A stretch of DNA of 64,000 nucleotides from Gammaproteobacteria bacterium. GTDB taxonomy: Bacteria > Pseudomonadota > Gammaproteobacteria > GCA-001735895. Where the stretch lies: contig JBNKUM010000075.1 of assembly GCA_050298595.1 (NCBI GenBank), positions 29,597-93,596 of the forward strand, in the 5' to 3' direction. Under the pieces are notes generated by a model. That model did not search any database. It worked only from the letters and a program-made list of their open reading frames with translations, and was not told the origin of the DNA. Below, in pieces: positions 1,813-62,645 of this stretch. Numbering within the stretch: position 1 is the first letter of the stretch; each line of letters starts with the position of its first letter. The translations under genes were made by a program, and so were the position numbers.

Positions 1813-2535
1813 ATGCCCGGACTTCCTCGTTTTGTCATTCCTGGTCAACCCCAGCATATTATCCAGCGTGGAAATAACTGACAGGAGATATTTCGAGAAG
1901 AGGGTGATTACCTGTTCTATCTGGAAAAGCTTACAGATGCAGCTAACAAGCACCAGTGTAAAATTCATGCCTATGTATTGATGGGCAATCATGTGCATTT
2001 ACTTGTTACACCGCATAGAGAAAATGGTATTGGTAAAATCATGCAAATGCTGGGACGCTATTATGTCCAGTACTTTAATTATAGCTATCAACGAAATGGA
2101 ACCCTGTGGGAAGGACGCTACAAAGCAACGCTGATTGATAGTAAGGAATACCTGCTAACCTGCATGCGCTATATAGAACTCAATCCGGTTAGAGCGCAAA
2201 ACTGGGTAAATCATCTCTCGAAATACCCCTGGTCGAGTTATTCATTCAATGCATTGGGTATGGAGAATCAACTGATAACATCTCATCAGGAATACAAGCG
2301 TCCAGGACGAACTGATGCTGAGCGACAATCTGCTTATCGACAACTATTTCGATCAAGAATACCGGAGATGACACTGGCAGAAATTCGCGAAGCGACTAAT
2401 AAAGCCTGGGTAATAGGAAGTGATAAATTCAAATCGAGAATAGCGCGTAAAATAGATAGGCCTGTACAATCAAGAGGGCATGGAGGGGATAGGAAGTCAA
2501 AGGCTGATAAGAAAGGGTCGAAAGCGAAAGTTTAA
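1813..2535 (+). pseudogene. REP-associated tyrosine (HUH/Y1) transposase, RAYT, with in-frame TGA at 1879-1881
   Basis: ATG 1813 gives MPGLPRFVIPGQPQHIIQRGNN*QEIF..HAYVLMGNHVHLL..YIELNPVRA..YPWSS; the stop replaces the conserved Arg of RGNNR. Confidence 0.88.
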
Positions 2536-12558: not shown

Positions 12559-12696
12559 GTACAGGATGTACGGGCAGATTTTTGCTCGGCTCTGGCTTCC
12601 TCGGCCCAGGCATCCTGCTTCGCCCTACCTCCTCCTTCCATGGAGTCGTGCTTCGCTCTACCATCTAAATCCCTTTAGGTGTCCTCGGCAATTGCT
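12559..12696. repeat. Nested cluster of 48-bp two-hairpin mini-elements
   Basis: Inner copy 12602-12649 lies inside outer copy 12587-12601 + 12650-12682; both align with 60875-60922. Confidence 0.8.
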
Positions 12697-28622: not shown

Positions 28623-29726
28623 ATGGCAATCAGCAGCCCTAAAGAAATAATTGAAGATATTCGCCAAGGTAAGATGGTCATTCTCATGGATGACGAAGAT
28701 CGCGAAAACGAAGGCGATATCCTGATCGCAGCGGATAAAATAACTCCCGAGGCCATCAACTTTATGGCTACCCATGGTCGTGGTTTGATCTGTCTGACGT
28801 TAACGGCTGAACGTTGCCAGCAGCTAAACCTGCCATTGATGGTTAGTAAAAATACAGAGAGCTTCGAAACTAACTTTACAGTGTCTATAGAAGCAGCAAA
28901 GGGTATCCTGACAGGTATCTCAGCGAAGGACCGTTGTCGTACCATACAGGCTGCCGTTGCAGCAGATGCAATGCCAGAAGATATCGTGATGCCGGGACAT
29001 ATCTTCCCTATCATGGCTCGCCCCGGTGGTGTACTGACCAGAGCAGGGCATACTGAAGCAGGTTGTGACATAGCCCGCATGGCCGGATTGACGCCTGCTA
29101 GTGTAATCGTAGAAATTTTAAACGATGATGGCACTATGGCACGCAGACCCCAACTGGAGATCTTTGCTGAAGAACATGGCATAAAGCTCGGCACCATCGC
29201 TGATCTTATTGCTTACCGATATGCCAATGAAAAGACCATAAAGAGAGTGGATGAATCACCAATACAGACTCCTTTCGGTGAATTCAAGGTTGTTATTTTT
29301 GAAGATTTAATCGATGGCGATATGCATTTCGCACTTATCAAAGGCGACATTGATCCGGATGAAGCAACTCTGGTGCGTGTAGTACATACTCAAAATGCAC
29401 TGGTCGATTTATTACAATCTGGTGATAAGACATGGACCCTGCCGAATGCTATGCAAAAGATCGCGGATGAAGGTGGCGTGCTAGTTATACTGGCCAGTCA
29501 GGAAACCAATCAATCGGTGCTGTATAAAATCCACAAACTCTGTTCAAGAGAGGTTGCGCCAGCAAATACACCAACTCCAGATCAGTTCAATCAGGTCGGT
29601 GCCGGTTCACAAATTCTTTCTGATCTGGGTATCTCAAAGATGCGTCTGTTGACATCCACCTCTCAGCGTTATCATGCCCTGTCCGGTTTTGGTCTTGAGG
29701 TGGTTGAATATATCTGCGAACACTGA
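28623..29726 (+). CDS. ribB: DHBP synthase fused to a degenerate GTP cyclohydrolase II domain (RibBX type)
   Basis: [20 protein letters not shown]; C-terminal domain lacks the Zn-binding cysteines. Confidence 0.88.
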
Positions 29727-60518: not shown

Positions 60519-60542
60519 AGGCCAAGTTTATTAAGGCAAAAG

Positions 60543-60622
60543 AGCTAACAAGCGGGTCAAATACGCCCGCAAACTACGCGGGCTCGGACGCGCAAAAGAC
60601 GCGCGCCGTTTACCCTTATCGT
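60543..60622 (+). other. attC1, interrupted in its R' core (GT|TATAC, remainder at 62608-62612)
   Basis: AGCTAAC, gggtcaaa/tttaccc pairing with an extra C, GC-rich inner palindromes. Confidence 0.9.
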
Positions 60623-60734
60623 GTGTGCCGGGCATGGCACTTAACTAGAGAGGTGAAAGTCCTCTTACCAGGTATTCGCAGAGCCGAAGGTTAGTCAAAG
60701 GGCAAGGGCGTCATTGTGAGGTGGGGTCTGAAGG

Positions 60735-60783
60735 ACAGGTTTTTGCTCCTGCAAAACCTGCATTTCCACCATCCATGGTGGTC
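60735..60783. mobile_element. 49-bp two-hairpin mini-element (type A) in intron domain I
   Basis: Removal restores TCTGAAGG|AAG, as in IIC introns; near-identical copy at 62199. Confidence 0.85.
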
Positions 60784-60874
60784 AAGTCCAGGACAAAATC
60801 GCGGGGCGATGGACAAGAACCCAATATGAGGTGTGACGTATTCGGGGCCAGCGGGCACGTGACTGCTAAGCCCT

Positions 60875-60922
60875 CGGCTTTAGCCTCCTGCGTCGCACTA
60901 CCTCCTGCATCCATGCAGTCGT
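60875..60922. mobile_element. 48-bp two-hairpin mini-element (type B) in intron domain I
   Basis: 38/48 identical to 12602-12649, with a compensatory stem change. Confidence 0.8.
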
Positions 60923-61142
60923 CCATCTGCAAGCGGGATACGTTTTATAAATTGGGCGTTTACGCGATGAAAGTTAAGTGTCTTACCCCGGGAGGTCTGT
61001 ACTGTGTTGAAGGAGCAACTGACTATCGAGAGATCGATAGTGATCGCAGTACAGAAGTCAGCAGAAGGCATAATAGGTTGCACTCTCGCAACTTAAGGCC
61101 GGAACAAATCGAGGAGAGTACTCGTTGGAGAAGTATTACTAA

Positions 61143-62517
61143 ATGGCACCTGATAAGCAGATAACACTGCCTCTGGAAATTCCAGAGGGTGAATTGGTAA
61201 TGGGAGATTCAACTGAACCAAAATCCAGCTTTTGTTCATCATTACTTAATCGCATACTAGAGAGGAATAATCTAGTACGCGCGTTAAAACAGGTTCGTCG
61301 CAATAAAGGTGCTTCGGGTATCGACGGTATGAGCGTCAATGAACTACCTGATTTTCTCAAACAACACTGGCCCCAAATTCGGCAACAATTAATCGAAGGA
61401 ACCTATAGGCCAAAACCGGTTATGCGTGTCGAGATCCCCAAGCCAGATGGGCGTAGGCGAAAACTGGGCATACCAACTGCATTGGATTGACTGATCCAGC
61501 AGGCGATTGCACAGGTGCTGCAAGCAGAATGGGACGGTAACTTCCATGACAACAGTTATGGATTTCGCCCCAAACGCAATGCACACCAGGCACTCCAATA
61601 CGCGCAGGAAACGATCCGGCAAGGTAATCGCTGGGTCGTCGACTGTGATCTAGAAGCCTTCTTCGATAACGTGAACCATGATCTACTCATGACGCGTTTA
61701 AAAGACAGGCATCAAGACCCAAAGTTACTGAGATTAATCAACCGCTACCTCAAAGCGGGAGTCCAGATAGGCACTACGACAAAAGCCAGCATCCATGGCG
61801 TACCGCAGGGCGGCCCGCTGTCACCGATACTGTCTAACATCGTACTTAACCAACTGGACTGGGAACTCAATACCCGAGGGCACCGGTTCGTTCGCTATGC
61901 TGATGACTTTGTCGTATTCGTTAAAAGTCAGCAAGCAGGTGAGCGAGTCATGCATAGTCTACAGCGTTATATTGGGAATACACTCCGACTCAAAGTGAAC
62001 ACCCAAAAGAGTGCTGTAGACAGGCCCTGGAACAGAACCTTCCTCGGCTTTACGTTCAGCAGAAAGGGCTCGAAAATCAAGGTGAGTGATAAATCACTGA
62101 AGAAACTAAAAGCCACAGTCAGGCTGCTAAGCCGTCGAACGAGAGGCCATGCCTTATTACAGGTTATCGCAGACTTAAGAAAATCCCTGCTTGGTTGGAC
62201 AGGTTTATGCTCCTGCAAAACCTGCATTTCCACCATCCCGGGCGGTCAAAGCCTACTTCGATATAGCCGAAGTATTGAGTCCACTGCGAGATCTGGATAA
62301 ATGGATTCGACGACGATTGCGAAGTTACGTGTGGAAACAGTGGGGACGTAAAGGTTATAGGATGCTCAGGCGTCTGGGCGTAAAGCGGCAACTGGCCTGG
62401 AATACTGCCAAGTCAGCGCACGGCCCCTGGAGACTCAGCGCTAGTCCAGCACTTTACACTGCACTACCAAACAAGTACTTTAAGAACCTGGGGCTACCAG
62501 AGCTGGTAGCAAGATGA
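61143..62517 (+). pseudogene. Intron-encoded RT/maturase (no endonuclease domain), disrupted
   Basis: NKGASGIDG, IPKPDG..LGIPT, SYGFRP, GVPQGGPLSP, RYADD; TGA at 61488-61490 (ALD*LIQQA) and 49-bp insertion frameshift at 62199-62247. Confidence 0.92.
62199..62247. mobile_element. 49-bp mini-element (type A) in RT ORF
   Basis: Removal restores GGT TGG|AAA GCC TAC TTC (GWKAYF) and the reading frame. Confidence 0.9.
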
Positions 62518-62645
62518 ACACAAAGAGATTTGAACCGCCGTGGTACGTGATCCGTATGCCCGGTGGTGTGGGAGGAGGGGTGTCGTGAGGCATCCCCCTA
62601 TCCCGATTATACGGAATATTAGGACAAACCAACATTTGATATCTA

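What the first reader, a model, noticed from the sequence alone, without database searches (positions are those of the whole stretch)
60735..62247. 49-bp mini-element inserted twice, precisely, at GG|AA sites
Seen: two near-identical 49-bp units (hairpin with TCCT loop, spacer, hairpin with ATCC-containing loop) interrupt conserved sequence. Excision restores TCTGAAGG|AAG in the ribozyme and TGG|AAA (GWKAYF) in the RT. There are no terminal inverted repeats and no target duplication beyond a 1-nt boundary ambiguity. This is direct evidence of mobility for a very small non-coding element. Inference: TSD-free insertion with hairpins suggests a single-strand HUH-type mechanism acting in trans, such as a RAYT relative. 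I do not recognise a named family.
Basis: partly seen in the sequence, partly recalled or inferred. Interest (0 to 1): 0.82.

Follow-up and report, generated by a model that had tools for sequence, protein, structure and literature searches.

The report
Tiny two-hairpin mobile DNA in intron
A 49-base, gene-less, two-hairpin piece of DNA has been pasted precisely and without any footprint into a self-splicing intron (twice) and into hairpin loops of many other Gammaproteobacteria, so it is one of the smallest mobile elements with direct evidence of movement, but the enzyme that moves it is still unknown.

Summary
Two 49-nt units (60735-60783, 62199-62247; 4 of 49 differ) interrupt a group II intron, one in ribozyme domain I and one between the W and K codons of its reverse transcriptase. 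Empty sites exist: a paralogous intron in the same genome, an intact intron on another contig, and environmental contigs that skip exactly these 49 nt.

A third, related 48-nt unit sits at 60874-60921. The genome holds about 100 units of one nested superfamily at 69 loci. The 49-nt type occurs in at least 123 loci across many gammaproteobacterial orders, and compensatory changes keep both hairpins paired.

Insertion is after GG and before a purine, often in hairpin loops, with no duplication and no inverted ends. Related units insert into each other's TCC loops and into a TwoAYGGAY-like repeat.

The mobiliser is not identified. The genome's 26 Y1 (RAYT/IS200-like) genes carry other repeats at their flanks. 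IS91, IS110 and reverse transcriptase are each missing from some carrier genomes. A single-strand, hairpin-reading HUH-type enzyme remains the best guess (about one in three).

I found no description of the family. Earlier notes of this scan report similar two-hairpin mini-elements in other phyla; I did not check them.

The parts
60621..62612 (+). Degenerate group II intron that hosts the elements. Both ends are approximate: GTGTG lies at 60621/60623 and the 3' end was not mapped.
   Evidence: Rfam RF02001 at 60710-60981 and RF01998 at 61019-61100. RVT_1 match with one TGA. RT frame.
60735..60783 (+). Mini-element A, copy 1 (49 nt). It sits in ribozyme domain I between GTCTGAAGG and AAGTCC.
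   Evidence: Empty paralogue at C56. Environmental contigs skip exactly 60735-60783.
60874..60921 (+).
   Evidence: It appears as an insert against the Rfam consensus. It aligns with A and is an nhmmer family hit. Contigs with 0-1 mismatch skip exactly these 48 nt.
62199..62247 (+). Mini-element A, copy 2 (49 nt). It sits between the W and K codons of the RT thumb/X region and shifts the frame.
   Evidence: The same insertion is present in near-identical introns of two other genomes of the genus (L024 and L025).
61143..62516 (+). Intron-encoded reverse transcriptase gene. It is broken by copy 2 and by a TGA at 61488-61490.
   Evidence: Position 61488 reads C in contigs of two DNA runs.
12574..12695 (+). 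Nested cluster outside the intron. The left arm of an A-type unit follows GG of a GTAC-AGGAT-GTAC hairpin. Its TCCT loop holds B units in the order head-head-module-module.
   Evidence: The same context occurs in two relatives (L027 and L028).

Best explanation
The 49-nt unit is a non-autonomous mobile element of an undescribed superfamily of about 33-50-nt hairpin units.

Structure: each A unit has two hairpins with TCC-containing tetraloops, a fixed spacer (CAYTTCC) and a GGTC end.

What is shown: it is inserted, in one orientation, between GG and a purine, often in the loop of a pre-existing hairpin. It leaves no duplication. Near-identical host sequences exist without it. Relatives (B types) insert at the edges of the TCC loops of other units and of a TwoAYGGAY-like repeat, which builds nested arrays.

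What is inferred: the element is recognised as a folded single strand and is cut and joined by an enzyme supplied in trans. A single-strand HUH-type (Y1, IS200/IS605- or RAYT-like) reaction is the most likely chemistry. The enzyme itself is not identified.

The two intron copies are passengers. The domain-I site lies in an unpaired joiner that tolerates the insert, so introns carry the element between genomes. The RT-site copy inactivates the gene.

Sub-probabilities: mobile element 0.95; recognised as a single-strand hairpin 0.7; HUH-type enzyme about 0.3-0.35.
For: Precise filled and empty pairs:
- Intron C74 is filled and C56 is empty (GTCTGAAGG|AAGCCGCTAG). Flanks are 100% and 91.5% identical.
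- The intact intron on C13 has both sites empty.
- In the domain-I census of this genome, 8 sites are filled and 5 are empty, of 13.
- Environmental contigs skip exactly the 49 nt (one DNA run, one RNA run) and exactly the 48 nt of B (3 DNA contigs and 2 RNA contigs, one of 279 nt with 0-1 mismatch).
- For B, a host repeat is filled in several copies and empty at C36 and C67.

The element is more conserved than its host: 96% between the window and C74, against about 80% for the flanking intron.

Distribution:
- 5 exact-core copies plus 3 variants in this genome.
- 8 of 41 relatives.
- At least 123 loci in named Gammaproteobacteria. Of 82 matches read, 71 are uninterrupted units, 8 are interrupted and 3 look like chance.
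- 11 of 401 genomes of the class, with control 0.

Structure: 93.1% of cells are paired against at most 38.8% when slid. Four pairs show double changes. 0 of 500 shuffles reach the covariation score.

Target: G at -2 in 60 of 65 copies and a purine after GGTC in 65 of 65. Flanking stems of 4 bp or more occur in 15 of 65, against 5.6 expected and a maximum of 12 in 200 shuffles.

Nesting is shown.

The HUH analogy rests on recalled knowledge of IS608/ISDra2 and of RAYT-REP: no duplication, no inverted ends, subterminal hairpins, a short specific target and a fixed orientation.
Against: - No candidate enzyme is linked. Only 1 of 26 Y1_Tnp matches lies within 3 kb of a family member. I estimate about 2.8 expected by chance from copy density.
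- The RAYT-like genes carry other, TIR-like repeats at their flanks.
- Y1_Tnp is present in 36 of 41 relatives whether or not the elements are.
- There is no replication-strand bias (31:21). This test is confounded by target orientation.
- The hairpins abut the element ends more closely than in IS608 (recalled).
- A and B insert with opposite polarity relative to the TCC/GGA target strand, which one simple guide rule does not explain.
- All runs that were laid are contigs, so no excised circles or fresh insertions could be seen.
Confidence: 0.5

Rival explanations
1. Another DNA enzyme moves the element. Candidates are a site-specific recombinase or DEDD (IS110-like) transposase, or a loop-nicking Rep/relaxase-like protein that cuts AYGG|AY-type loops. 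The 1-nt overlap would be the crossover point.
For: Insertion is precise, free of duplication and of inverted ends, and falls in hairpin or REP loops. IS110-family elements behave this way (recalled). There is a 1-nt ambiguity at both junctions. The target lies at the centre of AYGGAY-like loops.
Against: G010 has 36 B-core matches and 0 DEDD_Tnp_IS110 matches. No known IS110 relative has a 49-nt non-coding derivative (recalled). Covariation that keeps pairing while the sequence changes points to a folded single strand rather than a duplex site.
Confidence: 0.17
2. The element moves through RNA. The unit would be transcribed and copied by a reverse transcriptase (group II intron or retron-like), and the cDNA hairpin would be integrated.
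For: Within the genus, RVT_1 tracks the B core: 8 of 9 genomes with B have it, against 1 of 5 without B. The elements ride in introns. Short cDNA hairpins made by other RT systems are described in 10.64898/2026.09.22.753630 (passages read).
Against: The three genomes of genus g4 that carry A have 0 RVT_1 matches at 96-99% completeness. The elements show no co-orientation with flanking genes (9 against 12). No contig joins across the RT-site copy.
Confidence: 0.1
3. No dedicated enzyme is involved. Copies would spread by replication template switching or by gene conversion between hairpin loops that share TCC/GGA microhomology.
For: Targets and element loops share or complement the TCC motif. 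Secondary deletions occur between repeated TCCATG motifs (C101).
Against: Boundaries are identical to the base at dozens of unrelated sites and in distant orders. Donor flanks differ, so there is no homology to guide two exact switches. Orientation is fixed.
Confidence: 0.08
4. The segments are native, lineage-specific structure of the intron and are not mobile.
For: The domain-I site is occupied in 8 of 13 intron segments of this genome and in introns of other genera. The RT-site copy is shared by three genomes.
Against: Empty sites exist in paralogues and in near-identical environmental contigs. The Rfam consensus lacks the segment. The same unit lies in terminator and REP loops far from any intron. 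The RT-site copy breaks the frame.
Confidence: 0.01

Closest known systems
REP / REPIN elements mobilised by RAYT (Y1 HUH) transposases. Seen: PMC3116915 abstract; PMC3733652 passages.
   Same: Both are short, non-coding, hairpin-forming, mostly extragenic repeats. Both form clusters and tandem arrays, lack a classic duplication, and are presumed to be handled as single strands. B units end in a CGTC-like tag.
   Different: A has two different hairpins in tandem, not one palindrome or two inverted REPs. It has no GTAG tag. No RAYT gene is flanked by the units. The same sequence occurs in many orders, whereas REPINs are reported as lineage-bound and vertically inherited (abstract of 10.1101/2022.05.22.493013, search listing).
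IS200/IS605-family elements and their gene-less derivatives (PATEs). Recalled, not read here.
   Same: No duplication, no inverted ends, a hairpin near each end, insertion next to a short specific sequence, and a fixed orientation.
   Different: A is ten times smaller than known derivatives. Its hairpins reach almost to the ends. No parent element with the same ends was found. No strand bias was seen.
TwoAYGGAY RNA motif, Rfam RF01731. Seen: Weinberg 2010 table row; Gardner and Eldai 2015 passages; 10.64898/2026.09.22.753630 section 8 and discussion passages.
   Same: Both have two successive hairpins, and on the reverse strand of A the loops read AUGGAU and AGGA. Both are multi-copy in Gammaproteobacteria and associated with REPs. 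The preprint suspects TwoAYGGAY of 'mobile-element-like' expansion. A repeat in this genome of about 330 nt and about 45-55 copies has a TwoAYGGAY-like core, and it is a landing site for B.
   Different: The RF01731 model matches nothing in the genome or in the host repeat. A has no basal stem. Only one of its two loops fits AYGGAY, and only in part of the copies.
Small dispersed repeats (SDR) of Nostoc, Elhai et al. 2008. Recalled: the paper is not held and was seen only as a reference entry.
   Same: Both are very small hairpin units shown to be mobile by comparison. Both insert into copies of themselves and can sit in RNA and protein genes.
   Different: SDRs are 21-27 nt, are cyanobacterial, and have other sequences and contexts (HIP1, heptamer arrays). 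The comparison rests on memory.
Classic MITEs. Review PMC10969869 was searched for terms only.
   Same: Both are non-autonomous, short and dispersed.
   Different: MITEs have terminal inverted repeats and target-site duplications. This element has neither.

Membership tests
REP/REPIN-RAYT system | A cognate RAYT gene flanked by the repeats | tested here: not met
   Only 1 of 26 Y1_Tnp matches has a family hit within 3 kb. The flanks of 14 RAYT-like genes show other repeats.
REP/REPIN-RAYT system | A single palindrome of 20-40 nt with a GTAG or CGTC tag; REPIN = two inverted REPs | tested here: not met
   A has two different hairpins in direct order and ends in GGTC, with no GTAG. Some B units end in GGCGTC, so they are CGTC-like.
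IS200/IS605-type (HUH) non-autonomous element | No target duplication, no inverted ends, hairpins near both ends | tested here: met
IS200/IS605-type (HUH) non-autonomous element | Insertion next to a conserved short target in a fixed orientation | tested here: met
   G at -2 in 60 of 65 copies and a purine at the junction in 65 of 65. The target is only 2-3 nt, which is shorter than the 4-5 nt recalled for IS608/ISDra2.
IS200/IS605-type (HUH) non-autonomous element | A parent element or TnpA with the same ends | tested here: not met
   None in this genome and none among the 82 matches read elsewhere.
IS200/IS605-type (HUH) non-autonomous element | Bias for one replication strand | tested here: inconclusive
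   31 against 21 loci by local GC skew, in a draft assembly.
TwoAYGGAY RNA (RF01731) | Match to the covariance model | tested here: not met
   No match at E up to 0.1 around the element. None in the window at gathering score. None in the genome at E up to 0.001; the control genomes were also silent. None at E up to 10 on three host-repeat copies.
TwoAYGGAY RNA (RF01731) | Two hairpins with AYGGAY loops on a common basal stem | tested here: inconclusive
   The reverse strand of A has AUGGAU and AGGA loops but no basal stem. The host-repeat core has both loops, and by eye a TTTTCA/TGAAAA stem, but its fold is not better than shuffles (z -0.27).
Classic MITE | Terminal inverted repeats and target-site duplication | tested here: not met
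Native group II intron substructure | Present in all homologous introns and part of the consensus | tested here: not met
   Absent from the Rfam consensus. 5 of 13 sites in this genome are empty. Empty environmental contigs exist.

The most novel reading that the evidence does not exclude
These units, together with the orphan TwoAYGGAY-type repeats, are one undescribed class of hairpin-loop-homing mobile DNA. A still unknown enzyme would nick the centre of AYGGAY/RTCCRT loops in folded single strands and paste in 33-50-nt hairpin modules. This would build nested arrays, use group II introns as vehicles between genomes, and at the same time scatter GGA-loop (Csr/Rsm-type) binding hairpins through transcripts.
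Probability: 0.25. Interest if true: 0.9.

Novelty: new variant of a known kind. Interest (0 to 1): 0.72.

Why it matters
Mobile DNA below 100 nt is rarely shown to move. Here the proof is direct: base-exact filled and empty alleles exist in paralogues, in relatives and in environmental contigs.

The element is conserved across gammaproteobacterial orders, yet it is patchy (11 of 401 sampled genomes). It rides inside a retroelement. It also lands in the same kind of loop that defines the orphan TwoAYGGAY RNA family, whose spread is unexplained.

That gives a concrete handle for three things. The first is finding a new hairpin-directed insertion activity. The second is explaining nested hairpin arrays that inflate intergenic regions and break assemblies. 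The third is asking whether such units rewire Csr/Rsm-type regulation.

The domain-I site also marks a place where a group II ribozyme appears to tolerate about 50 extra nucleotides. One genome holds at least four intron copies that carry it, but no splicing test was made.

Tried and rejected
- RAYT flanking test: negative.
- Phyletic patterns of Y1_Tnp, RVT_1, DEDD_Tnp_IS110 and Y2_Tnp across relatives: none fits. Kin are not independent, so these are hints only.
- Retron-like RT on C119: it lies between an rRNA-methylase-like gene end (named by eye from the sequence) and rpsF (Pfam). No family units lie beside it.
- Crude scan for TCC-loop hairpins genome-wide: no enrichment over other triplets, so the descriptor is too loose.
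- Replication-strand and transcription-orientation tests: no bias.
- The shared left flank of several B arrays is not a gene.
- DNA downstream of the truncated intron on C9: no transposase-like ORF.
- Loop-to-target 'kissing' covariation between the variable loop base and the base before GG: four copies checked by eye and it did not hold; not computed.
- Plasmid collection: no match.
- Viral contigs: 1 match for each of the two patterns.
- Earlier-findings look-up by sequence: nothing.
- Read laying: no contig bridges or skips the RT-site copy. Contigs simply end at its edges, as expected at repeats, so this says nothing about RNA-level removal.
- A consensus of the ~330-nt host repeat failed because the query was badly chosen.
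- Literature: searches were poorly targeted. The Elhai 2008 paper is not held.
- Not used: complex prediction, structure prediction and the large protein searches, because no candidate protein emerged.

Full report
**1. Observation**

None was expected in 100 shuffles. The full units are 60735-60783 and 62199-62247, and 4 of 49 positions differ.

Copy 1 folds, as RNA or as DNA, into two hairpins. One has 10 bp with one bulge and a TCCT loop. The other has 6 bp and a TCCA loop. The z-scores are -4.1 and -4.8. In copy 2 the second hairpin is weakened.

Rfam places a group II intron here: RF02001 at 60710-60981 (78.7 bits) and RF01998 at 61019-61100 (53.8 bits). Its alignment prints copy 1 as a 49-nt insert in the unpaired consensus stretch UCUGAAGGA|AG.

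The intron's RT frame starts at 61143, reads ...RKSLLGW up to 62198, and continues in frame 0 from 62248 with KAYFDIAEV.... Copy 2 therefore sits exactly between two codons and shifts the frame. The RT also has a TGA at 61488-61490. Contigs of two DNA runs read C at 61488.

**2.

The same Rfam alignment shows a second insert of about 50 nt. It is a 48-nt unit at 60874-60921 (B). B aligns with A column by column: TCCTGC in the same place, a pyrimidine-rich spacer ending in CC, a second hairpin with a TCC loop, and a GTC(G) end.

Iterated nhmmer finds 98 family hits at 69 loci in this 5.49-Mb genome. Almost all are between genes: 2 of 66 loci lie inside long ORFs. The second hairpin comes in several compensatory versions.

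Units are nested.
- B sits in the TCCT loop of A-type units, for example at window 12574-12695, at C103 and at C96.
- One B subtype sits inside another at TCC|TGC, giving the order head-head-module-module.
- Tandem arrays with a 48-nt period also occur.

**3. Proof of mobility**

- The intron on C74 carries A. A paralogue on C56 reads GTCTGAAGG|AAGCCGCTAG without it. The flanks are 100% and 91.5% identical.
- The intact intron on C13 (474-aa RT) has both sites empty.
- A census of domain-I segments gives 8 filled and 5 empty of 13. One of the 'empty' sites, C118, differs by one base at the junction. That could be a substitution or an imprecise loss.
- In public runs, contigs skip exactly 60735-60783 (one DNA run and one RNA run). 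Others skip exactly 60874-60921 (three contigs of a DNA run and one contig in each of two RNA runs; one is 279 nt with 0-1 mismatch to the window). Because DNA runs hold these forms, they are DNA alleles, not evidence of RNA splicing.
- For B, a repeat of about 330 nt present in some 45-55 copies is filled in several copies, as CACGCTCCTATGCA[48 nt]TCCATGCATTCGCG, and empty at C36 and C67.
- No junction shows a duplication. Each has a 1-nt ambiguity.

**4. Distribution**

The A core occurs in 8 of 41 related genomes including this one: 4 of 13 others in the genus, 3 of 7 in a sister genus, and 0 of 16 single genomes of other families.

Contexts in the relatives are as follows.
- The same domain-I site.
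- The same RT site in near-identical introns of two genomes, so that insertion is shared, not private.
- Loops of terminator-like palindromes with no intron nearby.

These lie in Microbulbifer, Marinobacter, Thalassolituus, Paraglaciecola, Methylococcaceae, Shewanella, Enterovibrio and others. Of the 82 matches I read, 71 are uninterrupted two-hairpin units. Eight are interrupted or truncated after TTCC, some by further nested units. Three (Leifsonia, Marvinbryantia, Bacteroidales) look like chance.

In an even sample of the class, 11 of 401 genomes have the core and the reversed control has none. Viral contigs give 1 match and plasmids none.

Several copies lie at the homologous domain-I site of unrelated introns. 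One Thalassolituus genome has at least four such intron copies. This suggests that the ribozyme tolerates the insert and that introns carry it along (inference).

**5. Structure and target**

On 65 copies the two-hairpin model pairs 93.1% of cells, against at most 38.8% when slid. Four pairs show changes on both sides: AU/GC 30:30; UA/AU 48:10; four pair types at one position; CG/AU 44:16. 0 of 500 shuffles reach the covariation score.

The 3' arm of hairpin 1 was part of the search pattern. Its 5' arm and all of hairpin 2 were free. Loop 2 keeps TCC in 90% or more of copies, although it lay outside the pattern.

Pairing that is kept while the sequence changes argues that a folded single strand is what is recognised (inference).

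Flanks: G at -2 in 60 of 65 copies, a purine at -1 in 64 of 65, and a purine after GGTC in 65 of 65. Flanks that pair with each other over 4 bp or more occur in 15 of 65, against 5.6 expected and a maximum of 12 in 200 shuffles.

Many targets read CATGG|ATG, the centre of an AYGGAY-type hairpin loop. One B subtype enters at the 5' edge of TCC loops and another at the 3' edge. A and B thus enter with opposite polarity relative to the TCC/GGA strand. I cannot explain this.

**6. Mechanism**

The features shown are precise insertion, no duplication, no inverted ends, a hairpin at each end, a short specific target, a fixed orientation and a liking for loops. Among mechanisms I know, they fit single-strand HUH (Y1) transposition of the IS200/IS605 or RAYT kind best. 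This rests on recall, not on a test.

The tests I could run did not find the enzyme.
- The genome has 26 Y1_Tnp matches, but only one lies within 3 kb of a unit.
- Fourteen RAYT-like genes are flanked by other, TIR-like repeats.
- Y1_Tnp is present in 36 of 41 relatives regardless of the elements.
- IS91-type Y2 has 0 matches in this genome.
- IS110-type DEDD has 0 matches in a genome with 36 B cores.
- RVT_1 follows B within the genus (8 of 9 against 1 of 5). However, the three sister-genus genomes with A have none.
- Strand tests were flat.

I therefore commit to 'trans-acting, hairpin-reading, single-strand enzyme, HUH-type most likely' at about one in three for the HUH part. The rivals are listed separately.

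**7. Comparison with what is known**

- Rfam 15 has no family for the unit.
- Six literature searches gave no description of it. This is a limited search of an open-access library.
- The closest published objects are REP/REPIN-RAYT systems, the IS200/IS605 family (recalled), the cyanobacterial SDRs (recalled; the paper is not held) and the TwoAYGGAY motif.
- TwoAYGGAY has two hairpins with AYGGAY loops. It was proposed to bind CsrA (PMC4333381, passages). A 2026 preprint reports it as multi-copy, REP-associated and 'mobile-element-like' in Pseudomonas (10.64898/2026.09.22.753630, section 8 and discussion passages).
- The reverse strand of A shows AUGGAU and AGGA loops. The repeat that B invades has a TwoAYGGAY-like core. 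The RF01731 model nevertheless matches neither. I call this a resemblance and a shared target, not membership.
- Earlier notes of this scan describe similar two-hairpin units of about 50 nt nested in hairpin loops in Methylotenera, in Bacteroidota and elsewhere. I did not check them.

**8. Verdict**

This is a real, very small mobile element of an apparently undescribed, widely scattered superfamily. Its proposed mobiliser is untested at best and unsupported by the genome's own RAYT genes.

Noticed in passing
window 60874-60921: A third mini-element (B, 48 nt) in the same intron. It is absent from near-identical environmental contigs.
   Followed up: yes
window 12574-12695: A nested cluster downstream of a terminator. 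The left arm of an A-type unit has its loop filled by two B heads and two B modules. The right arm of A is missing.
   Followed up: partly
G000 C8:74290-74670 and about 45-55 other places: A non-coding repeat of about 330 nt. Its core has two hairpins with ATGGAT/ACGGAT loops between TTTTCA and TGAAAA, so it is TwoAYGGAY-like but not matched by RF01731. It is the commonest landing site of B.
   Followed up: partly
G000 C118:67587-67704 (-): An intron 5' fragment, 96.6% identical to the window's. Its site reads GAAGGACGCCC, one base off a clean empty site. The fragment is cut off by a repeat (AAAGGGGTCGGAGG...) that also flanks RAYT-like genes on C30 and C111.
   Followed up: partly
G000 C9:4577-4618 and C53:744-785: Two intron fragments carry A and the first 40 nt of B. 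They then diverge exactly in the loop of B's second hairpin, so the TCC loop was hit again by something larger. No ORF follows on C9.
   Followed up: partly
window 1813-2535 (+): A RAYT-like Y1 transposase frame (240 aa) with one in-frame TGA. No A or B units lie beside it.
   Followed up: partly
window 28723-28823 (-): Rfam RF02820 (V_AS9, Vibrio antisense RNA) at 55.5 bits, just above its gathering score of 50.
   Followed up: no
window 60540-60620: The intron starts right after a GC-rich palindromic repeat (GGACGCGCAAAAGACGCGCGCC). The C118 copy has the same kind of sequence upstream, so the intron may home next to this palindrome.
   Followed up: no
L066, L075, L105, L109 (Microbulbifer): One to three tandem copies of a 15-nt unit (GCTGGGCGGCATTCC) sit inside A, between the spacer and hairpin 2.
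   Followed up: no
L083, L093, L110: A further unit of about 78 nt, with its own TCCTGC and ATCC-loop motifs, is nested in hairpin 2 of A.
   Followed up: no
G000 C119:11996-13297 (-) (L158:2997-4298): A retron-like reverse transcriptase (433 aa; PADLOC RT_other, E 5e-124) lies between an rRNA-methylase-like gene end (named by eye) and rpsF. RVT_1 matches of similar size and score occur in four other genomes of the genus.
   Followed up: partly
L034 (a gammaproteobacterial MAG): At least three head-to-tail A units with a 50-nt period and no spacer.
   Followed up: no
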